NCBI GenBank assembly: GCA_022646745.1
Contig: CP060262.1
Coordinates: 1,080,001 to 1,112,000 of the forward strand
Source: Planctomycetales bacterium
Lineage (GTDB): Bacteria; 4484-113; JAFGCY01
Length of the DNA stretch: 32,000 bases
Direction: 5' to 3'
In this document: piece by piece, positions 16,458 to 30,484 of the stretch
How positions within the stretch are numbered: the stretch's first letter is position 1
Layout: each line of letters begins with the position of its first letter
The notes under the pieces: model-generated
What the model was told of the DNA's origin: nothing
The model's input: the letters and a program-made list of their open reading frames with translations, nothing else
The model's database searches: none
Position numbers and translations under genes: made by a program

Positions 16458-16465
16458 GAGTTTTC

Positions 16466-19400
16466 CTAGGGTGCCCATGGGGCGTCCAGCGGGTAATAGA
16501 TGTCCATCTTCCTGTTCCAGTGTCCAAGGTCGTCGCCATAAGTGAAGGTCAGCGGATAGCCATCGATGTCTAGCACCTTGCAGCTGAGCAGGGCTGACGG
16601 TCCGTAGTTGTCAACGAAACGCACCTCCGGCAGCCAGGCCTGGCCCGCACTGTCCGCCGCCTCCATGAAGCAGTGGCAACCACTCCAGTAACTGAGCACA
16701 GGCCGCCCCTGCAGCCAGTCCAGCTGTACCGGTTCCTGGCTCGGCAGGCTGGTCAGCCCGGGAATGTAGCTCCGGTTGGTCCAATCCCCTCCATCAGCGG
16801 CTGTCGCCCTCGCAAAGTAGAAGTCCTGTTCCTTGTAGTACCCCCTGCCAATCATCATGGCCACGGGCTTGCCGTCAAGTTCCACAAGATTGGCAACCAG
16901 CATGCCGTCATCCTGCTGCATGTCTATCGCCGGGTACCAGTCCTCTCCCCCTGCGTCCAGTGCTCTGGAGTAATAACTGCGAACGGGGTAGTTGCTGTTG
17001 TAGATGCTCCATGCCATCGCCGGTTTTCCCGCGACCACTGCCGCATACAGGTAGCATTCGTAGTAGGGTTGCTCGTGGTAGAGAATGATCTGTTCGTCTG
17101 ACCAGTCCGGCGATACCAGCGGATCCAGGTAGCGCATGGTGATGAACTGGTCACTGCTGTCCAGCATGATGATCCGGTCACCACTGAGCAGGAACTGGTA
17201 GTCCTGGTAATCCTGGTCCCCCCCGTAGCCAATGTATTCCGTCTCGGACCAGTTCGCCAGGCTCATGTCATCACTGACAATGTACCCGAGCGCATTTGGG
17301 CGGAAGAAGCAGACGTGCATCCGGCCCCCGATCACGGCTGCCAGCAGCGGCTGGCTCGCACCGGGCAGTTTCACCGGATCGGAAATCTGCAGTGATCCGC
17401 CTGCAGAGCTGATCTTCACCAGTGATCCGTTGTAGCCATCCTTCGGAAAGGCCAGGTAGCTGTCATCGCCATCCCTGGTACTGACGCAGTAATGCTTTAT
17501 GCCACGCCCACCCGGGCCGAAATGCAGGTCAATATCCGTGTCGATCCTGCCCCAGCCGGAGTTGAGATAATCCAGCGTGTACTTGGCCCAAGTGTCTTCG
17601 GCGTAAATCTCCAGGGTGACCCACATGCTGCCTTCCCACTGGAAGGGCTGGTGCTCGAATATCGGTTCCGAGGTTTCGATCACCTCGCCAGTCTGCAGTT
17701 TCCAGCGGTACTTCTGGATCCGTGCTCCGATGCTGCCGCTGGCATCGAATTCAACCACCCGGCCAGATGGGCCTTCCCGCTCCCGCAGTTCACTGACTGA
17801 TTTCGGGGCCGGTGCGTACTCTATCTCCAGGCTGGCAGTGTCGCTCAGCCCGATGCTGTCCGTGATCCTTACGCCAAGATTGATCAGGCCGGTGCCGGCC
17901 GGGGCTGTCAGGTTGACAATAGTGCCGGCATCCAGCGTTTCGAAGCTGCCGTCCCCATCAAGGTCCCAGTCGTAGGTCACTGGTCCGAATGTGAATACAT
18001 TGCTTGAAGCTGCCGAGTATTGCCGCGTGGTGCCGGCACGCATCCAGTCCTTTCCACTGATTTCGGCGATCGGTGGACCACCAATGCTGACCTGGGTATT
18101 GTTCGTTGCCGTATGGCCCTTGTCATCCGTGACGCTCAGCACCACATACTTGGTTCCGCCGGTTGCAAAGGACAGGCTGGCAAGCGCTTCATTCTCACCT
18201 GAGATGAACTGCGCTCCGTAGGCGCTCCATGCATACTGGACTATCGTGCCGACATTGCTGAAGCTCTGGCTGCCATCGGCCGTGATCACTTCACCTGGCG
18301 CTGCGATCTCAGTACTGAGCTCTATCACCGGTTGTGGCCTGTCATCATAACCCCACACCCGCAAGGACCTTGTCACAGCGGAGGTCCGTTGCTCTGAATC
18401 CGTGGCCAGCAGCCTGATTTCGTAGGTACCAGGCACCGGTAGTTTGAGGATGCCTTCGTAGTAGTCCGTATCGAAGAGTATCTCCCTGGGCTCCGGGCCT
18501 GTCACTTCCACCTTGCGGAGGATGACGGGAAGGAGGCCGGGGATCACCTCAGCACTGAGCAGGATGCCATCGTAGGTAAAGGTATCATCCGAGGAAAGGT
18601 TGAGCTTGACCTGCGGGGCACCGTCGACGGCGATCAGCCGGCTCAGTTCGGCTGTCCGGCCGAAGTTGTCAGTCACGAGCAGCCGGCAGCTGAAGCCGCC
18701 TGATGTTTCATATGTATGCTGCGCCAGCTGCGAATCCCCGGACTGGTCGATGCTGCCATCGCTATCAAAGTCCCAGGCATAGTCCAGGATCTCACCGTAC
18801 TCACAGGTGCTGGCCGAGGCATCAAACGCCACCGGCAGCGGACTGTCACCTGCTGCGGGCACAGCGCTGAACTCCGCAATGAGCTCACCCGGCCTCGTGT
18901 AATCCAGCGGCAGGCTCAGTGACCCCTCCGCTCCGGCGGCAATCGTGTACGGTGCCACGGAAAGCGTATGCACGCCGATTTCAGGCAGCTTGACAATGAA
19001 GCTGTAGCGCCGGTTGTTCAGCGCGATGATTTCGCTGTCCAGCCGGGAGATGCTCATCGGCGCTTCCGGCAGGCCCGGCCAGGGCAGCAGCTCGGCTTCC
19101 GCCCCGTTGAAGCTGTGGTAGACCCGGTAGCCGTCCAGCAGTTCGCCGAAGTGCTGCGCGATCGTTGTCACATCCGCCAGGCTGATTATGCCGTCGCGGT
19201 TGCCATCCACGCGGGAGCGCTCCCAGTTCGTCGTATCCCAGCCGTAGTAGTTGCCGTCCGGCCAGTACGCCACGCCATTGGCATCCAGCGGATCACGATA
19301 GGCAACAACTTCATCGAAATGCCTTGCCAGCGGCACGAGGTCCGCTGCATTGACCTGGCCGTTCCCGTCGTAGTCGCCACGCAGCACTTCCGTCCAGCTC

Positions 19401-19756
19401 AGTTCATACAGGTTGCCAGAACCGGGCAGTTCCTCAATCACCAGGCTGAATACCTCATTGCCTGCGCCGACGGCTGCCTCAGAAATGCCGCGGTCAGTGG
19501 TCTCACCGAGCTGCCGCGATAGCTCGCGCTGCAGTTCATCAAGCAGGCCGGACTGCATGTTTCCGATGCTGGCTGCAATATCCGCATCAGCGGATATCAC
19601 TTCGTTGGCAGCGGGAGCAGACGATCCCGGCTGGTTCGCCGCCTGTGTGGTAACACTGGAGTTGCCGGAGCATGCCGGCAATGCAAGCGCAAATGTAAGG
19701 GACAGCAGCCGTGCCGCCGTCCGCGGGCCTGTCGTCCGCAGCAATCTCAGATCCAT
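16466..19756 (-). CDS. Large exported lipoprotein: dockerin-like repeat pair + PKD-like array + Asp-box C-terminal region; paralogue 2
   Basis: ORF 16466..19768. ATG 19756 gives MDLRLLRTTGPRTAARLLSLTFALALPACSG (lipobox); 19768 is an alternative start. Dockerin-like: GDYDGNGQVNAADLVPLARHFDE and DGNRDGIISLADVTTIAQHFGE. PKD-like: FDASASTCEYGEILDYAWDFDSDGSID...LLVTDNFGR, VQYAWSAYG...LSVTDDKGH, VTYDWDLDGDGSFE...VRITDSIGL. Asp-box-like: ALDAGGEDWYP, ATAADGGDWTN, AADSAGQAWLP. Collinear with paralogue 1 (shared LDGYRVY..AEAE.LPWP..PEAP). Confidence 0.85.
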   Translation of the reverse strand: MDLRLLRTTGPRTAARLLSLTFALALPACSGNSSVTTQAANQPGSSAPAANEVISADADIAASIGNMQSGLLDELQRELSRQLGETTDRGISEAAVGAGNEVFSLVIEELPGSGNLYELSWTEVLRGDYDGNGQVNAADLVPLARHFDEVVAYRDPLDANGVAYWPDGNYYGWDTTNWERSRVDGNRDGIISLADVTTIAQHFGELLDGYRVYHSFNGAEAELLPWPGLPEAPMSISRLDSEIIALNNRRYSFIVKLPEIGVHTLSVAPYTIAAGAEGSLSLPLDYTRPGELIAEFSAVPAAGDSPLPVAFDASASTCEYGEILDYAWDFDSDGSIDQSGDSQLAQHTYETSGGFSCRLLVTDNFGRTAELSRLIAVDGAPQVKLNLSSDDTFTYDGILLSAEVIPGLLPVILRKVEVTGPEPREILFDTDYYEGILKLPVPGTYEIRLLATDSEQRTSAVTRSLRVWGYDDRPQPVIELSTEIAAPGEVITADGSQSFSNVGTIVQYAWSAYGAQFISGENEALASLSFATGGTKYVVLSVTDDKGHTATNNTQVSIGGPPIAEISGKDWMRAGTTRQYSAASSNVFTFGPVTYDWDLDGDGSFETLDAGTIVNLTAPAGTGLINLGVRITDSIGLSDTASLEIEYAPAPKSVSELREREGPSGRVVEFDASGSIGARIQKYRWKLQTGEVIETSEPIFEHQPFQWEGSMWVTLEIYAEDTWAKYTLDYLNSGWGRIDTDIDLHFGPGGRGIKHYCVSTRDGDDSYLAFPKDGYNGSLVKISSAGGSLQISDPVKLPGASQPLLAAVIGGRMHVCFFRPNALGYIVSDDMSLANWSETEYIGYGGDQDYQDYQFLLSGDRIIMLDSSDQFITMRYLDPLVSPDWSDEQIILYHEQPYYECYLYAAVVAGKPAMAWSIYNSNYPVRSYYSRALDAGGEDWYPAIDMQQDDGMLVANLVELDGKPVAMMIGRGYYKEQDFYFARATAADGGDWTNRSYIPGLTSLPSQEPVQLDWLQGRPVLSYWSGCHCFMEAADSAGQAWLPEVRFVDNYGPSALLSCKVLDIDGYPLTFTYGDDLGHWNRKMDIYYPLDAPWAP

Positions 19757-19899
19757 AGTCGTTCCCATTGCGGAACCAGTCCAGCCCCGACTGTCCCGTC
19801 TACAGCGTACAGCACTTCCCCAGTGCAGTAGATATATGGACGGCTATCAAGCTGCGAGGTTACAGATGAGGACGCTGCCCCGGTACTGACATGACCGGC

Positions 19900-20011: not shown

Positions 20012-22525
<2,514 letters not shown>

Positions 22526-22622
22526 ATGTTCTCAGACTCTCCGTGGCGGCGGCACCCTTGCCGCCGTCATCATTGCCCCGCCGGTGCCATCCTGGCACCA
22601 ACCGATTCGCCCCGCTCATGCA

Positions 22623-22691
22623 AGGCCAGATGTAGGGAAGGGCTACCATGCCCTTCCAATAGGGTGTCATGATGCATGCATCATGGCACAC
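22623..22691. repeat. 69-nt direct repeat, copy 1 (in the clpC leader)
   Basis: 62/69 identical to 22847-22915. Contains hairpin GGAAGGGC-TACCAT-GCCCTTCC (22636-22657) and the palindrome listed separately. Confidence 0.9.
22664..22689. promoter_or_regulatory. Perfect 18-bp palindrome CATGATGCATGCATCATG (22668-22685; 26 bp with one mismatch); candidate operator in the clpC upstream region
   Basis: Self-complementary, read directly. On the clpC (minus) strand it lies just downstream of the AT-rich GGTATATATAAAGGG stretch (22692-22706), the only -10-like string in this GC-rich leader. The second repeat copy has a degenerate version. Function is inferred. Confidence 0.35.
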
Positions 22692-22846
22692 CCTTTATAT
22701 ATACCTTGTGAGACCCCGGTTCACCTGAAACGGGACACTCGGAAGATTAACACGGGGTGAATTGACGTGCGATGCAAAAGGGGAGAAGACCATGAGAGTC
22801 GAGTGCACAGCACGAAATCACGCCGAAGGCGTGACCCATCCATCCG

Positions 22847-22915
22847 AGGCCAGATGTAGGGAAGGGCTACGATGCCCTTCCAACAGGATGCCAAGAAGCA
22901 CGCATCATGGCACAC
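22847..22915. repeat. 69-nt direct repeat, copy 2 (22 nt beyond the methyltransferase stop)
   Basis: Same element as 22623-22691. Hairpin GGAAGGGC-TACGAT-GCCCTTCC is conserved; the palindrome half is degenerate. Confidence 0.9.
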
Positions 22916-22937
22916 ATTTAACTTATGAAAGAATAAA

Positions 22938-25900
22938 TCAACTTAGTAGTGCAGACTTTCCCATCCTGTATTTCAATTGATAATTACAAATGTAATCTAA
23001 TTCATGCTTACTCATATGTAGAGCTTCTGCAAGTCTTACATCTAATTCATCAATTATTGCTTTGCACCTACTGGGCTGAAACTGCTGATATGTTACGGAT
23101 CCAGCAATACTATGTTTTGTTGGTATCATTTTACTATTTTCTAAAAGACAGTTCCAAAGTGATTCATTAATGCTTTTGAAATTTAGTTCCAATATTGACT
23201 TAGAAATCGGAAAATCCTTCACATCTCCGGGATTAAAATCGCGGCAATTGGTATTCATTATGTAGTATATGTAAAACAGTGAGCTATTGAAAAGTGCAAA
23301 TGCGAGATTCATTATCTGCTCATCCTTACACGGCATTACTGCTTCGCGGGTAGAGTTACCAACGACATTGTTATTAATGTACTTAGGAGGTTCTAACGTT
23401 ATTGTAAACCAATGTGCTATCCCTGTTTTCTTGTAATAGACATTGTAATCGCTCTTTCTTTTCAACTGAGAACCGAATCTGAGATTGCCATCTTTGAGTT
23501 TCGAATCAATTGATATTTGATGACGATCGCCATATTTCGGAATACAATTGTCATATTGATGTTCCTTATGCAATGCAAACATGATCTTCGAAGTAAACAA
23601 ATCCTCACGTTCGTCTTGATACCATTTAAGATATGAAGTTGTTCGAACCTGTTGATATTTAGTTGTTCTAGCCCTCAAATAGATTGCTAATCTAAAGTTT
23701 ACTCCATTAAACAGAACACTTGGATGTGCATCGGCACTCAAATTAATTATGAACAGTTGGCAATTACTACAATAGTGTTTATTAATCAGTGGGTTCATTC
23801 TGATTGTGCTATGACCACTCAGCGGCACAATCATAGAATCAATTCCGGTTGTTGAAACAAGATTTGAAACTCTTTCAATTATAAATGCGTAAAGATTGCC
23901 ACATTTCAGGGTATCATAGTTGATAATTTTATATTCCTTTATACCTCTAGGGTATTCTACGTATGGAGGATTCCCTATTACAACATCAAAACCCCCTTTT
24001 GAAACAATCCCGTGGAATTCTGCCCACCAATGAAATGGTGCGTGCTTGGTTTTCCATTTTAGATATTCGACAGTATTATCTGGATCTACTTTGTACTGTC
24101 TTGCTAAGTATTGATTCAGTTTGTTTGTCAAGTTAGATAATGCAACAATCAATTTCTCCTTCTCATCGCTAAACACCAAAGCACTTACGCCGGTTTGAAC
24201 TTGAAGATTTCTGTACTTGCGATACTGCTGATCTACATTCGATGCCGCATCTTTTATTGCTGGCAACTCATCCTCAAAATCAAATGAGGCATTTCCGCCT
24301 ATCGGTTGAAGTGCCCTTTTAACATCCATTTCGTTTGCAAAACCCACTAGCGAATTTCCAGCCCTGATATTGAAATCAATATCCGGCAGTGGCTCAATCT
24401 TCCCCACATCATCAATCTGGGCTACTAGCTTCAGGAATAGCCGGAGTTTGCAGATCTCACAGGCCTCATCCATTATGTCCACTCCATAGAGGTTGTCCAC
24501 AGCTATGGATTTCAGAATGAAGTACTCGCGGTTCGGATGCTGTGCAATGTTGTCCAGGACCTGTTCAAAGAACTTCTCATCGCCCAGGAAGGGCTTTCCC
24601 GCCGCATGCTTGTCGGATACATAGTCATTCATCCTGTTCAGGCAGGCATCGTATAGGGGCTGCAGCACATTGAGAGCTGCGAACAGGAAAGCACCACTGC
24701 CGACCGTCGGGTCCAGAACTGTAATGCCCAAGCTGACCTCCCCGCGGTGCACAGCGGTATGGTCACCATGCAAGGCGATCCAGCAGGCCTTGATCAGGTC
24801 CGTTCCCCCGGCAAGTTCAATCACATCCTGCATGAACTGGCGGATATCCAGGTTGTAAGTGATCAGGTCATTGATTTCGTGGAGATCCCCTCTGCTGAGT
24901 TTCTCCCTCAGCTCCAGGCAGCGTTGCCTGCGCTCTGAATATTCACGCCAGGTTTCCGTTGGCAGGCCAAGTTCGTCTCCAACCAGCCCGAGGTTATAGC
25001 GCTTTTCGAACATGCGCTTCTCTGGGTCCTGCATGCCTATCTTCACAAAGTCAGGCAGAGTATCCTCTGGAATGATGCCCCCATCTTCGTTAACCACACC
25101 CTTGCGAACTGCATCGTAGATATACCTGTCTGGGTCTTCCTGCAGCAGCTTCCAGACTGAGCCACCCTTCTCAAACGCAACAGCGCACTGCTCCTTCATG
25201 CGTTGCAGGATGAAAGGGATAATCGTGTTCTGGCTGATGTAACCTGTGATGTCCTCCTTCGTGTAGTAGGCCCCCATTTGCTTCTGGTTGATGTACTTCT
25301 CAAAGATGTAGCCAAGGACGTCCGGGTTGATTTCCTTGTCGTTGACAATCGCTGTCTCGTCAAGGTGCCACTTGAACTCATCAAAGAAGGCAAACAGCTT
25401 GTCAAATGCCTTGTCCGGGATGTCGATCTGCTCCCCACAGTGCTGCTCAACCTGGTGCTTCATGAAAAGGCCGCCGTTCAGATATGGCACCTGCTCCAGC
25501 AGTTCGTTCATCTTCTTTGAGCGGTCAGACTCTGGCTTGGCAAAACCCTCAAAGAACAGCGGGCAGAGGAATCTCCGGTAGTAGCTGTCCTTGCCAAGGT
25601 TCTTCTTTGCATACTTGAGGCGTTCTGAAAGGTAATCTATGTCCCCGTTGCCAAGGAACCCGCGCTTCTGGATGAAATAGATGAACATCAGCCGGTTGAT
25701 CATCACTGACACATACCAGCTCTGCTCATGGGCGTCATCAATTCCCGTAATGAGCTTTTCAAAGGCCTTGCGTTCCTTGTCAAACTTAGTGTAGAAGCTC
25801 TTTGTAACCTTGTCCTTGTTGAAGGCCGAACGCAGCCTTCCTGTTACATCGAGGATGTTGAGATTGCCAGCCTGCTCAAAGCTGAAACTGAATTTCTGCA

Positions 25901-26297
25901 GTGTCTGCAGCATCAACTCACCTGATTGTTGCCTGTTGAACTCCAGACTACGGGAAACCCGACGGCCATCTTCACGGTTGAACCAGTTCCAGAGCTGCTT
26001 CTCTTGTTTTGCATCGACAAAAATCAGGAGGTGCTCATGGGCTTGCTTCCTGATCTGCACGTGCAGCCTTGAACGGTGTGGGGTTATCGGAATCTGGCCG
26101 TTCTTGCCTGGATGCACCAGGAATATCTGCACGCCCTCCTGATCGGCGATAGCTTCAATCTTGTAGCTTTCGCCATCAAGCTTGATCGGGTCTATCCTGT
26201 TCTCATTCCTGCCCCAACCCAGTGCTTCCACGAACAGGTTACGGAAATCAAAAGCCTGGAGATACTTCCTAGCAAGTTCCTTATTGAAGGCAGCCAT
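22938..26297 (-). CDS. Gamma-class N6-adenine DNA methyltransferase, MmeI/PglX/Eco57I-like, with a C-terminal specificity region
   Basis: ORF 22938..26300. ATG 26297 overlaps the upstream TGA (TGATG), with GAGGTGA upstream. Motif X: QMGAYYTKEDIT. Motif I: VLDPTVGSGAFLF (nt 24681-24719). Motif IV: VVIGNPPYV (NPPY = nt 23961-23972). Helical-region strings RLMFIYFIQKRGF, YLNGGLF and INPDVLGYIFEKYIN are typical of MmeI/PglX/type ISP enzymes. About 340 aa follow NPPY and end in an LDVRLAEALHMSKHELDYI helix, as TaqI-C/TRD-type domains do. Confidence 0.92.
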   Translation of the reverse strand: MAAFNKELARKYLQAFDFRNLFVEALGWGRNENRIDPIKLDGESYKIEAIADQEGVQIFLVHPGKNGQIPITPHRSRLHVQIRKQAHEHLLIFVDAKQEKQLWNWFNREDGRRVSRSLEFNRQQSGELMLQTLQKFSFSFEQAGNLNILDVTGRLRSAFNKDKVTKSFYTKFDKERKAFEKLITGIDDAHEQSWYVSVMINRLMFIYFIQKRGFLGNGDIDYLSERLKYAKKNLGKDSYYRRFLCPLFFEGFAKPESDRSKKMNELLEQVPYLNGGLFMKHQVEQHCGEQIDIPDKAFDKLFAFFDEFKWHLDETAIVNDKEINPDVLGYIFEKYINQKQMGAYYTKEDITGYISQNTIIPFILQRMKEQCAVAFEKGGSVWKLLQEDPDRYIYDAVRKGVVNEDGGIIPEDTLPDFVKIGMQDPEKRMFEKRYNLGLVGDELGLPTETWREYSERRQRCLELREKLSRGDLHEINDLITYNLDIRQFMQDVIELAGGTDLIKACWIALHGDHTAVHRGEVSLGITVLDPTVGSGAFLFAALNVLQPLYDACLNRMNDYVSDKHAAGKPFLGDEKFFEQVLDNIAQHPNREYFILKSIAVDNLYGVDIMDEACEICKLRLFLKLVAQIDDVGKIEPLPDIDFNIRAGNSLVGFANEMDVKRALQPIGGNASFDFEDELPAIKDAASNVDQQYRKYRNLQVQTGVSALVFSDEKEKLIVALSNLTNKLNQYLARQYKVDPDNTVEYLKWKTKHAPFHWWAEFHGIVSKGGFDVVIGNPPYVEYPRGIKEYKIINYDTLKCGNLYAFIIERVSNLVSTTGIDSMIVPLSGHSTIRMNPLINKHYCSNCQLFIINLSADAHPSVLFNGVNFRLAIYLRARTTKYQQVRTTSYLKWYQDEREDLFTSKIMFALHKEHQYDNCIPKYGDRHQISIDSKLKDGNLRFGSQLKRKSDYNVYYKKTGIAHWFTITLEPPKYINNNVVGNSTREAVMPCKDEQIMNLAFALFNSSLFYIYYIMNTNCRDFNPGDVKDFPISKSILELNFKSINESLWNCLLENSKMIPTKHSIAGSVTYQQFQPSRCKAIIDELDVRLAEALHMSKHELDYICNYQLKYRMGKSALLS

Positions 26298-29200
26298 CAA
26301 TCAGTCACCTCGTTACGCAGCCCCATTGAACAGATAATCTGCGGTTCTTCATTCGGGCCTTCCGTTGGCAGGGAGCAAAGCCTGCCATCCTTGCGCAATG
26401 CAAGAACGGATTCCGCCAACTGGTGATCAGCAGCCTTAAGCCGCATCTGCCTGTTCAGGACATCCGTTGCATGGCCCGTCAAGGGATAGTTATAAATTTC
26501 CTGGATTGCTTCCTTGAGTGTTGTCAATTCCTCAGTACTGGCAAACAGGGAGTTCTTCTGTCTTTCAAGGTACCCGGACATTTTCTCATATGTCCGGTAG
26601 CGTGCACCCCGTGGGTTGCCAAGCTGGCCTCCCGCAAGCCTCGCCTGATCAGCAATCAGCAGTGCCCCCTGGGCGACCAGCTCATGGTGGTTTTCCAGTC
26701 TGCCTATGGCAGGCGTGGCCGCCGTACATTCGGCAATTTCAAGGATCCTGCTCTGGGACTCTGTCACGCTGTTTCCATTTTCATCCAACCACGCGAGGGC
26801 ATCCTGTCCCTCGCCGGTCCTCATGTAAAGCAATACTCCAGTGGGCGCATTCTCCCGCGGGTCATGCTGCTTAGTTGAATAGACCACGTTTGGCAGGGCA
26901 GGAATGATCTTCTTCAGCTTTGGATCAGCATCAGATGCATTCTTCCAGATCTGGTATGCACGTGATGTGAGATCAACGTCATCATCCTCCAGGTCATCCA
27001 GAGCAGATGACTTCTCGGTATAAAGGTCTCGCAGGTGCTGCTCAGGCATTGCATCCTCGAAGCCATATTCCTCATCAGTGCCAATAACCAGTGCATTTTC
27101 GCGAAGGCGGTTCTGCACCTTGCGCCGCAGCAGGATGATGTTCTCCACCCCTTCTGCCGGCAGGAAGGTGTAGCAGTAAATGCTGTCACTCTTCTGCCCG
27201 ATGCGATCAACACGGCCAGCCCGCTGTATCAGCCTGATGATTGCCCAGGGAATATCAAAGTTCACCACGATTGCGCAGTCCTGCAGGTTCTGTCCTTCGG
27301 ACAGGATGTCAGTTGTCAGCAGGACTCGGTGCTCATCCTCCGGCTTGATTCGATGCCTCTGCTCATTGCTGTCAGGGCTGAAGCGATATGCTGCCTCTGT
27401 GGGGTTGGAGGATGAACCAGTCACGCAGGCCAGCTTGTCAATTCCTGTGTCTGTCAGCTCGTTGTAAAGATACCTCACAGTATCTGCAAACTGAGAGAAT
27501 ACGAGGAACTTGGAACTTGGATGCTGCGCCAGCAGTGTCTTTAGTTCCTTTAGCTTGTTGTCCTTTGATGAGTCCCAGTTGCCAAACAACTCAAGCAGGC
27601 TGATGAGCGCTTCACAATCCTCAGAAAGATGCTCTGCAAGTTTCCCCGTCAGCAAGCTGCTGCGCAGCCACTTGTATCTCTTGCCAGTGCGGGACCGCAT
27701 CCAGTCATAATGCTGGCGAGCTAGATCCTTGAGTCCCGCTATTGCATCAGCAGTTTGCAGGTTCTCATCTGACTCGAACTCGGATTCGGAATCTTCATTG
27801 AGGAACTCGAGTTCGCCCTGGGCGCTGTCAACATCCTCGTCTGAATAGCGCGCATTCTGGATGCCTGCATCTAGGGTGCCGATGGGCACATCCAATCCGT
27901 TTTCGATCGCATATAGGAAAATGAAGTTTCGCAACAGGTGACTTCTAAGTGACAGTAAGAACACCTGTCCGCTGCTCTCCAGCCGCTTGAAAAGATTCGT
28001 ACGACAGAACCCGATAAGCCGCTGGCCAGCTTTGGTGAGATTTGCAAGCTGCTCCTTCTCTGAAGTAGTCGGTGCCTTGACAGGTACTTCATCGATGTAA
28101 CTTGCCAGGCCGTAGCGCGGCAGATGAAGCCGGTTTATCACCTTGACAACTTCATCGCTGTACATCAGTGCGTACTGATCAGTTTGGTCTTCATCATCAA
28201 CGGAAAACTTGATGGTCTTCGGAACTCGCTTGGGCAGGTAGAACCTGCGATCATCAGCGAATTCCATGTAATGGCGATCCTTCTGTTCGTCCAGCACTGC
28301 ATAGTTTGTCTTAATAAAAGAACGCGTGCGACGAACCATATACAGGCGCATCAGCTCCTGCCAGTCTTCCGTGTAGTCGCTGAGCATGAATGCCTTCAAA
28401 GTGTTTGGCTGGCATTGATGCTTGGCGGAAAAGACCGTCGCACTCATGGAGCGAAACAGTCTCTCGGGACGAAGTGTTAGTGCTTTTTCTGCATCAAGGA
28501 ACAGGTTGAGCTGGTTGCCAAGGTCCAGGAAGCACTTGTTGTATGGCGTAGCTGTCAGCAGAATGCACTTGCTGTCATTCTTGCCAATGTAATCCTGTAC
28601 GGTCTTGAATACCCGAGAGTCAGAGTTCCTCAGGTTGTGGCTCTCGTCGATAATCACTAGCCTGAAGCGCTTGAGATCCGGCAGCTCCTTGTTGACCATG
28701 CTCATTGACATCACCTGAGCATTGACAGCGAACTGTGTGCGGTAATCATTCCACATCGGTACAAGATTCTTTGGACAGATGATCAGAGTCTCATATGAGT
28801 AATCTTCCTGAATGACTTTTGCCAGTGCAGTTGCCATCAGGGTCTTGCCCAGTCCAACCACGTCCGCAAGCATGACGCCACCACGATTGATCAAGTGCCG
28901 AGCAGCAATCAATACCGCCTGCTCCTGGAAGGGCAGGAGTTTCCCCTGCATATCCTTGGGAATGGCAAAAGTTGCCAACCCTGCGCGTGCTTCCTGGGAA
29001 AGGTGGTACGCCATCTTGAGGTAGATATGATAAGGAGGCGGATCATCGGGACCAGCCCAGCTCTCCTCAATAATGTCAATCAGAGCTTGCGTGATGTCAA
29101 GGCTGCAGCGGTCATTCCAGCGTTCCTCAAACCAGTGGGCAAGTTTGTCCGCTGCATCGTTGTCAGTTACTTCCGTGTTCAATTCACCCTGAAGTGAAAG

Positions 29201-29704
29201 TCCGGACTTGGTCAGGTTGCTGCTGCCAAGGTAGCCTACCCTTGGCGTGATATTGTCATTTCTGTGGCATAGGTAAAGTTTCGCGTGCAGGCTATGCCTG
29301 AGGAATACCTTTACCTTTAGCTTTCCTGCGCGCAGCTGACCAACCAGCCGTTGCAGGCCAGCCTCGTCCTCTCCAGTGGGAATGCCAAACTCAAGTTGCT
29401 TGCGGAACTGCCTGGCTATTTCATCCTGCATTTCCTTAAGCTGCTTGTTATCCGGTGCTTCATGATCACCCTTGAGGGAATGCAGGCTGGCTTTCAGTTC
29501 ATCGTCAAGTGTGTAGCCCATCCCGACAAGCAGTCGGCAATAGTCGTTCTCTATGCCAGAGAATTTCTCGATTTCGGAGTCAATGATCTTCCAGCCACGA
29601 AGGTTAAAGTAACCAACGCTGAAGTCTGCCCTGTGAGAACCCTGTAGCGTTTCTCTTAGCGCAGGGGCTAATTCATTTTCTATGTTGTCGAAGATACGTG
29701 GCAA
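26297..29704 (-). CDS. Fusion protein: N-terminal PLD-family (single HKD) nuclease domain + SNF2-family helicase/ATPase + unassigned C-terminal domain
   Basis: 1135 aa. TTG start at 29704 with AAGAGG 6 nt upstream. PLD motif: LHAKLYLCH...GYLGSSNLT (aa 139-165). SNF2 motifs: LLPFQEQAV, DVVGLGKT (aa 281-288), IIDESHNLRN (351-360), LLTATPYNK, TTDILSEGQNLQDC, IQRAGRVDRIGQ (826-837). The stop TGA (26297-26299) overlaps the methyltransferase start. Confidence 0.92.
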   Translation of the reverse strand: MPRIFDNIENELAPALRETLQGSHRADFSVGYFNLRGWKIIDSEIEKFSGIENDYCRLLVGMGYTLDDELKASLHSLKGDHEAPDNKQLKEMQDEIARQFRKQLEFGIPTGEDEAGLQRLVGQLRAGKLKVKVFLRHSLHAKLYLCHRNDNITPRVGYLGSSNLTKSGLSLQGELNTEVTDNDAADKLAHWFEERWNDRCSLDITQALIDIIEESWAGPDDPPPYHIYLKMAYHLSQEARAGLATFAIPKDMQGKLLPFQEQAVLIAARHLINRGGVMLADVVGLGKTLMATALAKVIQEDYSYETLIICPKNLVPMWNDYRTQFAVNAQVMSMSMVNKELPDLKRFRLVIIDESHNLRNSDSRVFKTVQDYIGKNDSKCILLTATPYNKCFLDLGNQLNLFLDAEKALTLRPERLFRSMSATVFSAKHQCQPNTLKAFMLSDYTEDWQELMRLYMVRRTRSFIKTNYAVLDEQKDRHYMEFADDRRFYLPKRVPKTIKFSVDDEDQTDQYALMYSDEVVKVINRLHLPRYGLASYIDEVPVKAPTTSEKEQLANLTKAGQRLIGFCRTNLFKRLESSGQVFLLSLRSHLLRNFIFLYAIENGLDVPIGTLDAGIQNARYSDEDVDSAQGELEFLNEDSESEFESDENLQTADAIAGLKDLARQHYDWMRSRTGKRYKWLRSSLLTGKLAEHLSEDCEALISLLELFGNWDSSKDNKLKELKTLLAQHPSSKFLVFSQFADTVRYLYNELTDTGIDKLACVTGSSSNPTEAAYRFSPDSNEQRHRIKPEDEHRVLLTTDILSEGQNLQDCAIVVNFDIPWAIIRLIQRAGRVDRIGQKSDSIYCYTFLPAEGVENIILLRRKVQNRLRENALVIGTDEEYGFEDAMPEQHLRDLYTEKSSALDDLEDDDVDLTSRAYQIWKNASDADPKLKKIIPALPNVVYSTKQHDPRENAPTGVLLYMRTGEGQDALAWLDENGNSVTESQSRILEIAECTAATPAIGRLENHHELVAQGALLIADQARLAGGQLGNPRGARYRTYEKMSGYLERQKNSLFASTEELTTLKEAIQEIYNYPLTGHATDVLNRQMRLKAADHQLAESVLALRKDGRLCSLPTEGPNEEPQIICSMGLRNEVTD

Positions 29705-29851
29705 TTATTAGCCTCTTAACAACCCACCGGTTAGTTCCTCGGCGTTGGCATTTCGGGCCGTCGCCACTGGGAATTTATCATAGCATTAACAATCCCAGGC
29801 CGCTGGGCTCTGGGCTCGGGCCTGTCTTCCAACGTGTCGCAATTCCGGGGC

Positions 29852-29952
29852 GTAACGATACGTAGGCCCCAAACCTGCGGCCAGTGGCCTGTCGCATTTA
29901 TGCGATGTAACGATACAAAGGCCTGCTCCCTGCGGCCAGCGGCCTGTCTCAT
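29852..29952 (+). repeat. Tandem repeat with 55-nt period (two 46-nt cores, 37/46 identical), plus a partial earlier copy
   Basis: 29852-29897 is GTAACGATACGTAGGCCCCAAACCTGCGGCCAGTGGCCTGTCGCAT. 29907-29952 is GTAACGATACAAAGGCCTGCTCCCTGCGGCCAGCGGCCTGTCTCAT. GGGCCTGTCTTCC at 29818-29830 looks like the tail of a third unit. Palindrome TCGCATTTATGCGA at 29892-29905. Confidence 0.8.
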
Positions 29953-29977
29953 CCCTGTTCGACACTGATACCTTCTG

Positions 29978-30103
29978 AACACTGCCCACTGTTAACTGCT
30001 CACTGATTAACATCCCACATCCCCCATCCCGCATCCCGCTCCTGTCTCATCCCCTTCTCCCAACTGCGACCCCCTGATCCCCGGTCCCCGGTCCCAGGTC
30101 CCT
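29978..30103 (+). repeat. Three successive heptanucleotide arrays: (NNCACTG)x4, (ATCCCNN)x4, (GGTCCCN)x4
   Basis: 29978-30005: AACACTG CCCACTG TTAACTG CTCACTG. 30012-30039: ATCCCAC ATCCCCC ATCCCGC ATCCCGC. 30076-30103: GATCCCC GGTCCCC GGTCCCA GGTCCCT. Coordinates were cross-checked against flanking ORF-track boundaries. Confidence 0.9.
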
Positions 30104-30169
30104 GATTAACAACCGGTCCCCTGTACCAGTTGTCAGCAGAAAAACCCCGATTGTTGGGACATTTTCCGG

Positions 30170-30213
30170 CTGGAGGGGCTGCCGAGGGGGTCTGGAGGGG
30201 TGCTCAGGGGGGT
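30170..30213 (+). repeat. Tandem 22-nt G-rich repeat
   Basis: CTGGAGGGGCTGCCGAGGGGGT / CTGGAGGGGTGCTCAGGGGGGT. Five G4-G6 runs between 30174 and 30251. Confidence 0.85.
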
Positions 30214-30313
30214 CTCGCGACAGTTAGGTTAATAACGTCCGCAAAGGGGGGATCAGGCCCGATGGATACTGCCGATGCCGCCGGTGGCCGGGGATTAACT
30301 GTTAAAAGAGTAA

Positions 30314-30348
30314 CCAGTGGTCAGTGGTCAGTGGGCAGTAGGAACAGT
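30314..30348 (-). repeat. Heptanucleotide array in the opposite orientation (CCAGTGG TCAGTGG TCAGTGG GCAGTAG GAACAGT)
   Basis: This is the reverse complement of the CCACTGA/CTACTGC-type units seen elsewhere in the window. Confidence 0.9.
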
Positions 30349-30351
30349 TGA

Positions 30352-30441
30352 AATAGTATTGATAGTTTCAATAGTCAGATTTGAGAACGGACACTCCCGT
30401 GTACTCACTATTCGCACTATTCAGACTATCCAAACTATTCA
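30352..30441. repeat. Inverted pair of 9-nt-period arrays: (nATAGTnnn)x3 and (nACTATnCn)x4 around a 27-nt spacer
   Basis: 30352-30378: AATAGTATT GATAGTTTC AATAGTCAG. 30406-30441: CACTATTCG CACTATTCA GACTATCCA AACTATTCA. The hexamer cores are mutually complementary. The pair lies 44-133 nt upstream of the transporter start. Confidence 0.85.
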
Positions 30442-30484
30442 TACCTGGTCTCAAGTGCGTATGCGTGCCCGATAATTAAAGGAG

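What the first reader, a model, noticed from the sequence alone, without database searches (positions are those of the whole stretch)
22938..26297. Methyltransferase has an extra ~150-aa N-terminal module and an abrupt GC drop inside the gene (mosaic specificity end)
Seen in the sequence:
- The first ~150 aa (MAAFNKELARKYLQAFDFRNLFVEALGWG...HLLIFVDAKQEKQLWNW) precede the helical region and contain no methyltransferase motifs.
- MmeI-type enzymes keep their PD-(D/E)xK nuclease in exactly this position, whereas PglX does not. Here the only nuclease-like trace is D-x-K after a hydrophobic strand (LLIFVDAK).
- Spot GC counts fall from about 52-57% (lines 25021, 25441) through 45% (24241) to 33-35% (24061, 23581, 23221). 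The 3' ~1.2 kb, covering NPPY and the whole presumed TRD, is therefore compositionally distinct from the rest of the gene and from the helicase gene.

Inference:
- The specificity end was swapped in by recombination. Domain shuffling is well known for type I S subunits and type IIG enzymes.
- The N-terminal module is either a cryptic nuclease or the adaptor for the PLD-SNF2 partner.
Basis: partly seen in the sequence, partly recalled or inferred. Interest (0 to 1): 0.65.

Follow-up and report, generated by a model that had tools for sequence, protein, structure and literature searches.

The report
Mosaic methyltransferase gene in restriction system
A DNA methyltransferase gene, paired with a motor-nuclease gene in a widespread but unstudied bacterial defence system, has had its target-recognition half replaced by a copy from a much AT-richer donor; this is a clear example of a known way restriction systems acquire new specificities.

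Summary
GC falls in one step inside the methyltransferase (MTase) gene. GC3 drops from 0.68 to 0.33 at codon 638 (window ~24382, support 24360-24443). The low-GC tract runs about 20 nt past the stop codon, to ~22916.

The break lies in an invariant block, EPLPDIDFN. The locus is a two-gene island (GC 0.52) in a high-GC host (neighbouring gene GC3 0.95). It encodes a PLD-SNF2 motor-nuclease and, translationally coupled to it, a PglX-like N6-adenine MTase.

The pair is conserved in at least 589 species. One member is Synechocystis Slr6050 (M.Ssp6803IV), whose knockout does not segregate.

Across the family, recognition domains do not track the rest of the protein. Close backbones fall to 13-30% identity right after NPPY. 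Eight loci keep an orphan copy of the gene's tail downstream. So replacement of the 3' end is well supported. However, 77 of 78 relatives also show a GC drop, and the window is only the second most extreme.

The 160-aa N-terminal module is real and family-wide. It models confidently (pLDDT 91) but matches no Pfam family or PDB fold. Its D-x-K is not conserved, so a cryptic nuclease is unsupported. It co-varies best with the partner's PLD domain, which weakly favours a coupling role.

Overall: a new member of a known kind, moderately interesting.

The parts
26297..29704 (-). PLD(HKD)-SNF2 motor-nuclease gene (1135 aa), the restriction partner
   Evidence: Pfam hits: PLDc_2, RE_NgoFVII, SNF2-rel_dom, ResIII, Helicase_C. 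PADLOC 'HKD+Snf2' scores 7e-48. Its stop TGA at 26299-26297 overlaps the MTase ATG. It is conserved directly upstream of the MTase in 62 of 78 related loci, and most of the rest are cut by contig ends.
29210..29287 (-). Single HKD catalytic motif (H140-x-K142 ... G160-S-S-N163) of the PLD nuclease domain
   Evidence: There is one HxK...GSSN motif per chain, at least 90% conserved in 38 relatives. A single motif implies the active site forms by dimerisation, as reported for MtsD and BfiI (bioRxiv 10.64898/2026.09.23.753747).
28637..28855 (-). ATPase motifs of the SNF2 core (GLGKT 284-288, DESH 353-356)
   Evidence: Conserved at 90% or more across the family.
22938..26297 (-). PglX/Eco57I-like gamma-class N6-adenine DNA methyltransferase gene (1119 aa), mosaic
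   Evidence: Pfam Eco57I, MmeI_Mtase and DUF7814. PADLOC PDLC03628 matches end to end at 4e-263. The best fold matches are BrxX/PglX 9ewz and 8c45. It is 41% identical over 99% of its length to the pSYSX MTase identified as Slr6050/M.Ssp6803IV.
25818..26297 (-). N-terminal alpha/beta module (residues 1-160), a family-specific domain of unknown fold
   Evidence: The AF2 model has pLDDT 90.8 and topology aa-bbb-a-bbb-aaa. Foldseek finds no PDB hit (best E 0.047, TM at most 0.31). There is no Pfam hit and no PDB sequence hit. A profile finds 1525 cluster representatives, at the N-terminus in 149 of the 150 listed.
24738..25817 (-). Helical region (residues 161-520), the most conserved part together with the MTase N-lobe
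   Evidence: Mostly helical in the full-length model. Identity to the top hits is 59%. DUF7814 matches residues 244-291.
24684..24713 (-). MTase motif I (DPTVGSGAFL, residues 529-538), AdoMet binding
   Evidence: Read from the sequence. Invariant in the alignment.
24369..24395 (-). Invariant block EPLPDIDFN (residues 635-643), the inferred left recombination junction
   Evidence: Every residue of EPLPDIDFN is invariant in 31 sequences. The change point at codon 638 falls inside it. Sixteen family genes have their GC3 change point within -9 to +50 codons of this block.
22916..24382 (-). Low-GC tract (GC 0.36, GC3 0.33): codons 639-1119, the stop codon and about 20 nt of 3' flank; the replaced specificity half
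   Evidence: Its amino-acid composition is also of the low-GC kind: FYMINK ranks 2nd of 70 and GARP 64th of 70.
23961..23972 (-). Catalytic motif IV NPPY (residues 776-779); in most relatives this is the cassette junction
   Evidence: Thirty-two family genes have their change point at +100 to +200 codons from EPLPDIDF, which is at NPPY. Identity between close backbones collapses right after this motif.
23118..23930 (-). Variable C-lobe and target-recognition region (about residues 790-1060)
   Evidence: Mean pairwise identity is 0.30 and is uncorrelated with every other segment. It is shared at 60-80% between otherwise distant backbones.
22941..23117 (-). Conserved C-terminal tail (residues 1061-1119), which travels with the recognition region
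   Evidence: Tail and TRD identities correlate at 0.36, while tail versus backbone gives 0.0-0.25. Orphan copies lie downstream of complete genes in 8 related loci.
22617..22926 (.). Two copies of an 86-nt two-hairpin element (22617-22702 and 22841-22926). Copy B abuts the 3' end of the low-GC tract
   Evidence: No Rfam family reaches threshold. The link to the recombination event is unproven.

Best explanation
What it is
- A two-gene, ATP-dependent restriction-modification-like island of about 7.8 kb (roughly 22.7-30.5 kb).
- It was acquired horizontally by a high-GC host.

The two proteins
- The MTase is a PglX-like gamma-class N6-adenine enzyme. By analogy, its C-terminal half reads a short asymmetric site and methylates one strand. 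This step is inferred.
- The upstream, translationally coupled protein is an SNF2 motor with an N-terminal PLD nuclease. It carries a single HKD motif, so it must dimerise to cut. This step is also inferred.

The mosaic
- Codons 639-1119 plus about 20 nt of 3' flank were replaced by the homologous part of a family member that had long resided in a genome of about 35% GC.
- The replaced part covers the helical insert, motifs IV-VIII, the recognition domain and the C-tail.
- The left crossover lay in the invariant EPLPDIDFN block. The right end lay just past the stop codon.
- The likely result is a new recognition specificity on an unchanged backbone and partner. The compositional step and the family-wide cassette exchange are shown; the change of specificity is inferred.

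The N-terminal module
- It is a family-defining domain of unmatched fold and not a recognisable nuclease.
- It most likely couples the MTase to the PLD-SNF2 partner. This is inferred from weak evidence.
For: The step
- It is single and abrupt. GC3 falls from 0.677 to 0.330 at codon 638 (support 619-646). logLR is 67.7 on GC3 and 40.6 on all positions, against a shuffle maximum of 7.9.
- It lies inside the invariant block E635-N643.
- GC1 and amino-acid usage shift as well, so this is not synonymous drift alone.
- The equally variable N-module keeps the backbone's GC3: 0.63 in the window, residual z of -0.14.
- The window's C-half lies 2.5-2.8 sd below the family regression.

Not a chimera
- The same sequence is found in independent assemblies.

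Family-wide exchange
- TRD identity is uncorrelated with the backbone and the helicase (Spearman 0.02-0.16).
- Close backbones (80-100% identity) drop to 13-30% right after NPPY. Distant backbones share TRDs at 60-80% identity.
- Change points cluster at the two invariant blocks.
- Orphan C-tails lie downstream of 8 complete genes. In L073 and L055 the orphan has backbone-like GC.

Precedents in the literature
- Programmed inversions target a 3369-nt Type II RM gene with an adjacent PLD+SNF gene (PMC9881135).
- LlaGI and LlaBIII share more than 95% amino-acid homology across their first three domains, that is, outside the TRD (PMC3553950 abstract).

The system
- Domains and motifs are intact.
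- The gene pair is conserved in 62 of 78 loci.
- On Synechocystis plasmid pSYSX the helicase is 49% and the MTase 41% identical. That MTase, Slr6050, is tentatively assigned GAm6AGGC, and its knockout cannot be segregated (PMC6105098).

The N-module
- It co-varies with the partner's PLD domain at 0.60 and its C-terminal domain at 0.56. Partial correlations given the backbone are 0.45 and 0.39.
Against: - No donor or close relative of either half exists among 5.8 billion proteins. The C-half reaches at most 39% identity and the N-half at most 57%. The transfer therefore cannot be shown phylogenetically for this gene.
- A lower-GC C-half is nearly universal in the family (77 of 78). Part of the drop needs another, unexplained cause.
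- No orphan tail, partial copy, inverted repeat or recombinase lies near the gene in the window.
- No methylation motif, restriction activity or protein-protein contact was tested.
- The mirror-tree correlations use non-independent pairs from 42 loci and carry no significance test.
- In one close pair (L048 and L077) the N-module diverges without an obvious matching block in the helicase.
Confidence: 0.72

Rival explanations
1. There was no discrete transfer in this lineage. The low GC of the 3' half is an intrinsic, family-wide property of the fast-evolving specificity half. Possible causes are relaxed codon selection, AT-biased mutation, or selection for AT-rich sequence. On this view the window is simply the tail of that distribution.
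For: - 77 of 78 relatives have a lower-GC C-half, with a mean drop of 0.074 in GC and 0.156 in GC3.
- Even Slr6050, in a low-GC plasmid, shows a small drop.
- The direction is almost always downward, which random exchange among lineages would not predict.
- No donor was found.
Against: - The N-module is as variable as the TRD (34% against 32% identity to hits) yet keeps backbone GC3 (slope 0.91, r 0.93).
- The step is abrupt, with a support interval of 28 codons and no gradient.
- The window is 2.5-2.8 sd beyond the family trend.
- Identity patterns and orphan tails show real cassette replacement in relatives.
- The conserved C-tail is also low in GC (GC3 0.20 over codons 1051-1100).
Confidence: 0.15
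2. The N-terminal module is a cryptic or degenerate PD-(D/E)xK nuclease, as in MmeI-type Type IIG enzymes. The PADLOC/REBASE-style label 'Type IIG restriction enzyme-methyltransferase' would then be literally correct.
For: - The module sits where MmeI has its nuclease (established knowledge of MmeI).
- Residues 18-94 have an a-bbb-a-b order of elements, as in restriction-endonuclease cores.
- E88, H89 and D95 are conserved.
- PADLOC model PDLC03628 is named Type IIG and matches end to end.
- Weak Foldseek neighbours include nuclease-containing chains: a SPARDA complex chain at TM 0.30 and BsaXI at TM 0.27.
Against: - No Pfam MmeI_N hit or any nuclease family hit in 28 of 28 members, even at E up to 1.
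- No PDB sequence hit.
- No fold hit with E below 0.04.
- K97 of the window's D-x-K is variable. The nearly invariant K53 is Q in the window.
- No D...(D/E)xK triad is conserved.
- An intact nuclease is supplied by the strictly co-occurring partner.
Confidence: 0.07
3. The mosaic is an artefact: a chimeric metagenome assembly that joined two homologous genes at a conserved motif.
For: - The junction lies in a block conserved across the family, where assemblers can cross over.
- All related records are metagenome assemblies.
Against: - The exact 1119-aa protein is on three contigs.
- L001, from a different assembly, covers both junctions and both flanks. It is identical across the island while differing at 23 flank positions. 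L002 is identical over 8.4 kb.
- The reading frame is intact and every motif is present.
- The low-GC tract is flanked on both sides by the same context.
Confidence: 0.03
4. The 3' half is switched in situ by programmed inversion with a silent cassette (a shufflon), as shown for related PLD-SNF-associated MTase genes.
For: - Long-read-confirmed inversions occur in a Bacteroides ovatus locus with the same gene pair (PMC9881135).
Against: - There is no second copy of any part of the MTase gene in the 32-kb window, whether direct or inverted, at DNA or protein level.
- No recombinase gene was seen next to the two island genes. Pfam scans of the adjacent large ORFs found none, and small ORFs in the flanking gaps look non-coding.
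Confidence: 0.03

Closest known systems
Slr6050 = M.Ssp6803IV and its upstream 'helicase-related protein' on Synechocystis sp. PCC 6803 plasmid pSYSX (PMC6105098; NC_005232.1)
   Same: - Orthologous gene pair. The MTase is 41% identical over 99% of its length, N-module included. The PLD-SNF2 protein is 49% identical end to end.
- The order is the same: helicase first, then MTase.
- The MTase is tentatively assigned an asymmetric m6A motif, GAAGGC.
- Its knockout does not segregate, as expected if the partner restricts unmethylated self DNA.
   Different: - A VapBC pair lies between the two genes on pSYSX.
- The C-half is unrelated beyond family level.
- Only a small GC drop is seen (0.372 to 0.322).
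- The paper does not mention the helicase partner ('helicase' occurs 0 times).
- That this CDS is slr6050 rests on plasmid, length (1100 aa) and annotation; it was not checked by accession.
PLD+SNF helicase gene next to a Cj0031-like Type II RM gene, targeted by programmed inversions (Bacteroides ovatus CP083813.1; PMC9881135)
   Same: - Same two-gene architecture and gene size (3369 nt against 3360 nt).
- The MTase gene is diversified by DNA rearrangement.
   Different: - Diversification there is by in-locus inversion. The window has no silent cassette or inverted repeat.
- Sequence homology to the window's genes could not be tested, because that genome is not in the collections at hand.
Type ISP restriction-modification enzymes (LlaGI, LlaBIII)
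   Same: - A nuclease, an SF2 motor, a gamma-class N6A MTase and a TRD acting on asymmetric sites.
- Close homologues differ mainly in the TRD (PMC3553950).
- LlaGI (5ffj) is a structural neighbour of the MTase model.
   Different: - Type ISP is one polypeptide with an Mrr-family nuclease. Here there are two polypeptides, a PLD nuclease and an SNF2-type motor.
- The N-module is absent from Type ISP.
BREX PglX/BrxX
   Same: - Best structural match (9ewz_C at E 1.8e-9, also 8c45).
- Best PDB sequence match over motifs I and IV.
- The order of regions is the same: helical region, MTase, TRD.
   Different: - No PglZ or BrxC was found in the flanking ORFs scanned (13.1-31.8 kb).
- NCBIfam BREX_1_MTaseX scores 64 bits against a cut-off of 500.
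- BrxX starts with a helical bundle and has no alpha/beta N-module (PMC12839542).
SNF2 helicase + PglX-like MTase pairs of Class 1 DISARM (DrmD-DrmMI), BREX type 3 (BrxHII-PglXI) and ARMADA (ArmA-ArmB)
   Same: - An adjacent SNF2-family helicase gene and PglX-like MTase gene.
- Weak profile hits to DrmD, DrmMI and BrxHII.
   Different: - Those systems need further genes: DrmA/DrmB, PglZ/BrxC or a YprA-like helicase. None was found in the window ORFs scanned.
- Their helicases lack the fused N-terminal PLD.
- DrmD scores 130 bits against a cut-off of 610.
MANTIS (Gao_RL) MtsD and SauUSI
   Same: - An N-terminal PLD domain followed by an SF2 ATPase.
- One HKD motif per chain, with the active site formed by a dimer (bioRxiv 10.64898/2026.09.23.753747).
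   Different: - MANTIS has four genes, including an AAA+ loader and an alpha-class MTase.
- SauUSI is a Type IV enzyme that cuts modified DNA.

Membership tests
Type IIG (MmeI/Eco57I-like) single-chain restriction-methyltransferase, the label of PADLOC model PDLC03628 | Nuclease domain (PD-(D/E)xK) in the same polypeptide as the MTase | tested here: not met
   MmeI_N is absent from the protein and from 28 of 28 N-modules. No conserved D...(D/E)xK. No fold or sequence match to any nuclease.
Type IIG (MmeI/Eco57I-like) single-chain restriction-methyltransferase, the label of PADLOC model PDLC03628 | Gamma-class N6A MTase with Eco57I-type motifs and a C-terminal TRD | tested here: met
   Pfam Eco57I at 1.3e-20 and MmeI_Mtase at 8e-6. 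Motif I and NPPY are present.
PLD-SNF2 + Slr6050-like MTase two-gene system (unnamed; REBASE name M.Ssp6803IV for one MTase) | MTase homologous end to end, including the N-terminal alpha/beta module | tested here: met
   41% identity over residues 4-1114 to the pSYSX MTase. More than 8000 full-length relatives. The N-module profile finds 1525 cluster representatives.
PLD-SNF2 + Slr6050-like MTase two-gene system (unnamed; REBASE name M.Ssp6803IV for one MTase) | PLD-SNF2 gene directly upstream on the same strand | tested here: met
   The stop and start codons overlap in the window. 49% identity to the pSYSX helicase. The partner is present in 62 of 78 loci; most others are contig-limited and L058 is solitary.
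PLD-SNF2 + Slr6050-like MTase two-gene system (unnamed; REBASE name M.Ssp6803IV for one MTase) | Methylates an asymmetric site and restricts unmethylated DNA | not testable with these tools
   The only evidence is indirect: the tentative GAm6AGGC assignment and the non-segregating slr6050 knockout (PMC6105098).
BREX (PglX) | Operon with PglZ and BrxC, and a PglX model score above the curated cut-off | tested here: not met
   The flanking ORFs scanned encode a Clp-type ATPase, PKD-domain proteins and one protein with no Pfam hit; a transporter-like frame at about 30480 was read by eye only. BREX_1_MTaseX scores 64 bits against 500.
Class 1 DISARM | DrmA and DrmB (DUF1998) together with DrmD and DrmMI | tested here: not met
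   No DrmA or DrmB in the window ORFs scanned. DrmD scores 130 bits against 610. DrmMI hits are weak (1.4e-17).
Type ISP | Single polypeptide with Mrr nuclease, helicase, MTase and TRD | tested here: not met
   There are two reading frames and the nuclease is PLD. The resemblance is functional only.
MANTIS / Gao_RL | Four genes, including an AAA+ MtsA, MtsB and an alpha-class MTase | tested here: not met
   The island has two genes. The MTase has the gamma-class motif order, with motif I before NPPY and the TRD at the C-terminus.
Programmed-inversion (shufflon) MTase loci | A silent partial gene copy in inverted orientation, plus a recombinase | tested here: not met
   No second copy in 32 kb at DNA or protein level.

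The most novel reading that the evidence does not exclude
This family may diversify its specificity by '3'-end displacement'. An incoming C-terminal cassette recombines at one of two invariant motifs (EPLPDIDFN or NPPY) and pushes the old gene end downstream. That would leave the orphan tails seen here, much as polymorphic toxin loci (Rhs, CDI) replace their tips. The cassettes would come from a shared, AT-rich pool that moves across phyla faster than it can adapt to host composition, which would explain the near-universal GC deficit. In addition, the N-terminal module could be a previously undescribed fold that licenses the partner's PLD nuclease. It also appears to be exchanged or to evolve fast (L048 against L077), and it recurs as four tandem copies in an unrelated cNMP-binding/4Fe-4S protein.
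Probability: 0.3. Interest if true: 0.6.

Novelty: new member of a known kind. Interest (0 to 1): 0.42.

Why it matters
- **A clear worked example.** The junction of a specificity-domain replacement can be read straight from base composition, down to a 9-residue invariant block.
- **A large, neglected family.** The two-gene PLD-SNF2 + PglX-like MTase system is encoded in at least 589 species representatives and more than 8000 protein clusters. No functional study of it turned up in the searches made here. Annotation tools label its MTase 'Type IIG', although no nuclease domain could be found in it.
- **A tractable model.** The link to Slr6050 (M.Ssp6803IV) gives a testable explanation for why that gene cannot be deleted: the neighbouring motor-nuclease would attack the unmethylated genome.
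- **Possible engineering use.** If the junctions at EPLPDIDFN and NPPY are natural swap points, they are obvious places to re-engineer specificity.

Tried and rejected
- **Donor search.**
  - Separate searches with the C-half and the N-half found nothing closer than 39% and 57% identity. The 'different lineages' test cannot be run.
  - The negative correlation between segment scores is a selection artefact of taking the top total scores, so I discarded it.
- **Silent-cassette idea.**
  - The C-half hits were all 403-832 aa long, which suggested silent cassettes.
  - Two that I checked (L085, L087) are split or decayed genes instead. I dropped the idea. Why no full-length proteins were listed remains unexplained.
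- **N-module identity.** All of the following were negative:
  - Pfam.
  - PDB sequence profile.
  - Foldseek against PDB and BFVD.
- **Helicase block matching N-module divergence.** I looked for one in the L048 pairs and found none that was clear.
- **The 86-nt repeat.**
  - Rfam gave only sub-threshold hits.
  - Two exact-pattern scans of metagenome contigs found no copy.
  - No copy lies in the other fetched loci.
- **Orphan tail or partial copy in the window.** None found.
- **Named multi-gene systems.** BREX, DISARM, MANTIS, ARMADA and the BR systems were each rejected, because their other defining genes are absent and scores fall below the curated cut-offs.
- **Small ORFs in the flanking gaps.** They do not look like coding sequence.

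Full report
**The locus**

Two long minus-strand genes fill a compositional island.
- Gene 26297-29704 encodes a 1135-aa protein. It has an N-terminal PLD/HKD nuclease domain and an SNF2-type ATPase core (Pfam PLDc_2, RE_NgoFVII, SNF2-rel_dom, ResIII, Helicase_C). PADLOC 'HKD+Snf2' scores 7e-48.
- Gene 22938-26297 encodes a 1119-aa Eco57I/PglX-like N6-adenine methyltransferase (MTase).
- The helicase stop codon TGA (26299-26297) overlaps the MTase ATG (26297-26295), so the two are translationally coupled.
- The island has GC of about 0.52. The flanks are at 0.62-0.69.
- The adjacent Clp-type ATPase gene has GC3 of 0.95, against 0.60 for the helicase. The whole pair is therefore foreign to its host.
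- The island's right edge is near 30526.

**The GC step**

- A two-segment likelihood model puts the break at gene nt 1915, codon 638, window 24382. GC is 0.517 before and 0.362 after. logLR is 40.6, while 200 shuffles reach at most 7.9.
- On third codon positions the step is 0.677 to 0.330, with 2-lnL support at codons 619-646. Neither side has a second step.
- The low-GC tract ends at 22916 (support 22892-22923), about 20 nt after the stop codon.
- GC1 falls from about 0.6 to about 0.4.
- The amino-acid make-up of the C-half is of the low-GC kind. FYMINK ranks 2nd of 70 family members and GARP ranks 64th.
The tract begins 138 codons before NPPY.

**Not an assembly artefact**

- The exact protein is on three public metagenome contigs.
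- L001 covers window 20096-30950 at 99.79% identity. Its 23 differences are all in the flanks, and 22 of them lie in 30604-30936. The island itself is identical. L002 is 100% identical.

**Where the break falls in the protein**

- An alignment with 30 full-length relatives shows that E635-P-L-P-D-I-D-F-N643 is invariant. Codon 638 lies inside this block.
- The block sits between motif I (residues 529-538) and NPPY (residues 776-779).
- The replaced part therefore comprises four pieces:
  - the helical insert between these motifs;
  - the rest of the catalytic domain;
  - the recognition region;
  - the conserved C-terminal tail.

**The family**

- The MTase has more than 8000 relatives. Of the 120 listed, nearly all cover 99% or more of the query and are about 1075-1140 aa long, but none exceeds 47% identity.
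- A scan of one genome per species found at least 589 species with a relative. The 80 kept are all environmental MAGs from many phyla.
- The PLD-SNF2 gene lies directly upstream in 62 of 78 loci. Most exceptions are contig ends, and one MTase (L058) is solitary.
- A member is on plasmid pSYSX of Synechocystis sp. PCC 6803. There the helicase is 49% identical end to end and the MTase 41%, with a VapBC pair between them.
- By plasmid, length (1100 aa) and annotation, that MTase is Slr6050 = M.Ssp6803IV.
  - It is tentatively assigned the asymmetric motif GAm6AGGC.
  - Its knockout could not be segregated (PMC6105098).
  - That paper never mentions a helicase.
  - My reading is that the neighbouring motor-nuclease makes the MTase indispensable, as in any restriction-modification pair. 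This is an inference.

**Is the GC drop special?**

Only in part.
- Splitting each homologue at the EPLPDIDF block, 77 of 78 have a lower-GC C-half. The mean drop is 0.074 in GC and 0.156 in GC3.
- The regression is gC = 0.02 + 0.83 gN. The window lies 2.5 sd (GC) and 2.8 sd (GC3) below it, the second most extreme of 70.
- The N-terminal module is about as poorly conserved as the C-terminal region (34% against 32% identity to hits). Yet it tracks backbone GC3 (slope 0.91, r 0.93; window z of -0.14). Weak constraint alone therefore does not explain the drop.
- The 54 genes with a clear step (LR above 10) have change points in two places:
  - within -9 to +50 codons of EPLPDIDF: 16 genes, including the window;
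  - at +100 to +200 codons, which is the NPPY motif: 32 genes.
- I cannot fully explain why the direction is almost always downward.

**Direct evidence for cassette exchange in the family**

- Pairwise identities of the recognition region are uncorrelated with every other part of the MTase and with the helicase (Spearman 0.02-0.16). Backbone segments and the helicase correlate at 0.3-0.6.
- Among closely related Dehalococcoidia loci (L048, L057, L065, L077, L083), identity is 80-100% up to about residue 780. It then falls to 13-30% immediately after NPPY, and in several pairs it recovers in the C-tail.
- Conversely, distant backbones share recognition regions at 60-80% identity (L042/L046, L008/L039, L042/L072).
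- Eight loci with a complete gene carry a second, orphan copy of the conserved C-tail. It lies 260-3700 nt downstream on the same strand. These loci are L016, L018, L019, L026, L031, L055, L066 and L073.
- In L073 and L055, which have strong GC steps, the orphan has backbone-like GC. This is the footprint expected if a new 3' end displaced an old one.
- The window has no such remnant and no partial or inverted copy.
- Published precedents exist:
  - Programmed inversions target a 3369-nt Type II RM gene with an adjacent PLD+SNF gene in Bacteroides ovatus (PMC9881135).
  - The Type ISP enzymes LlaGI and LlaBIII share more than 95% homology across all domains but the TRD (PMC3553950).

**The N-terminal module**

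- Residues 1-160 model with high confidence (pLDDT 90.8). The topology is two helices, three strands, a helix, three strands, then helices.
- It has no significant match in any library tried:
  - Foldseek against the PDB (best E 0.047, TM at most 0.31);
  - Foldseek against viral models;
  - a PDB sequence profile;
  - Pfam, with MmeI_N absent in 28 of 28 members.
- A profile search of 1.84 billion representatives finds 1525 proteins. Of the 150 listed, all but one carry the module at the N-terminus of proteins of this family or of fragments. The exception is P0310, which has four tandem copies fused to cNMP-binding and 4Fe-4S domains.
- Conserved residues include L21, G27, W28, R75, E88, H89, D95, Q101, W103, W105 and R116.
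- A cryptic PD-(D/E)xK nuclease is therefore unsupported.
- BrxX/PglX, the best structural relatives of the whole protein (9ewz_C at E 1.8e-9), start with a helical bundle (PMC12839542). The module is thus extra relative to PglX.
- Its divergence tracks the partner's PLD domain (0.60) and C-terminal domain (0.56) better than any other MTase segment does. Partial correlations given the backbone are 0.45 and 0.39. That fits a coupling role, but it is weak evidence.

**How the system most likely works (inferred)**

1. The MTase reads an asymmetric site with its C-terminal half and methylates one strand.
2. On unmethylated sites it engages the SNF2 motor.
3. Each PLD-SNF2 chain has a single conserved HKD motif (H140, K142, GSSN 160-163) and intact ATPase motifs.
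4. Cleavage should therefore need two chains to form one active site. This is reported for MtsD of MANTIS and for BfiI, and it recalls the collision mechanism of Type ISP enzymes.
5. None of these steps was tested here.

**Classification**

- The PADLOC model that matches end to end is named 'Type IIG restriction enzyme-methyltransferase'. The defining same-chain nuclease could not be found.
- BREX, DISARM, ARMADA, MANTIS and the DUF499-centred BR systems share parts. Their other defining genes are absent, and curated cut-offs are not reached.
- The locus is best filed as a new member of the unnamed PLD-SNF2 + Slr6050-like MTase pair. This is a split relative of Type ISP enzymes with a PLD nuclease.

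**Verdict**

- Recombination at the specificity end is well supported in kind and probable for this gene (about 0.72). It is one case of a family-wide habit rather than a singular event.
- The cryptic-nuclease idea is not supported. The adaptor idea remains open.

Noticed in passing
window 22617-22702 and 22841-22926: An 86-nt direct repeat (84% identical) lies in the gap between the MTase stop and the Clp-type gene. Each copy folds into two hairpins (z of -2.7 to -3.7). Copy B abuts the 3' end of the low-GC tract. No Rfam family reaches threshold, and there are no other copies in the window, in the other fetched loci, or in two metagenome scans.
   Followed up: partly
window 29705-30480: About 780 bp upstream of the helicase gene appear to be non-coding. 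The stretch holds a tandem 55-nt repeat (29835-29944), an inverted repeat (29981-30009 / 30311-30339) and short G/C-rich iterations. Its function is unknown; it could hold the promoter or an integration scar.
   Followed up: no
window 30604-30936 compared with L001: Of the 23 differences between the window and contig L001, 22 cluster in 330 bp of the right-flank gene, which by eye reads as a transporter-like frame on the + strand. Most are spaced at multiples of three. The 7.8-kb island is identical in both. This suggests either recent spread of the island between diverged strains or strain mixing at a contig end.
   Followed up: partly
window 13104-19768 and 20012-22525: Two tandem proteins of about 1100 aa with PKD domains, and a ClpB/ClpC/ClpV-like double AAA+ ATPase with very high GC3 (0.95), flank the island. 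They do not appear to be related to defence.
   Followed up: no
P0310 (1050 aa, from the representative search): Four tandem degenerate copies of the MTase N-module (keeping the LGW...FTD...QxW signature) lie inside a protein with cNMP-binding and 4Fe-4S dicluster domains. The module is thus an independent domain used outside methyltransferases.
   Followed up: partly
L016, L018, L019, L026, L031, L055, L066, L073 (260-3700 nt after the MTase stop): Orphan copies of the conserved C-terminal tail (…VLAxHYGFTDEELDFIINYDIKYRMG…) lie downstream of complete MTase genes, and some carry in-frame stops. In L083 and L028 the tail is instead separated from a truncated gene by an insertion of about 1.1 kb.
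   Followed up: partly
L088 (Synechocystis pSYSX 41833-57114): On pSYSX a VapBC toxin-antitoxin pair sits between the helicase and MTase genes. The pair lies next to a ThiF/E2/multiubiquitin gene set, an HTH-ImmA pair and an integrase, which looks like a defence island.
   Followed up: no
P0275 (1280 aa) and P0023 (1314 aa): Some family members carry extra domains. P0275 has a Schlafen AlbA_2 domain inserted between motif I and the Eco57I domain. P0023 has a Peptidase_S24 (PF00717) domain.
   Followed up: no
one search hit list; L085, L087: All 119 non-self top hits to the C-half are 403-832 aa long, although full-length relatives with similar C-half identity exist. Two that were examined are split or decayed genes, and in L085/L086 they lie among transposases. 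The reason for the length bias in the list is unexplained.
   Followed up: partly
L048 compared with L077, L065, L083 (MTase residues ~20-160): Between otherwise close backbones (82-100% identical), the N-module alone drops to 41-60% identity. The N-module may therefore also be exchanged, or it may evolve fast.
   Followed up: partly
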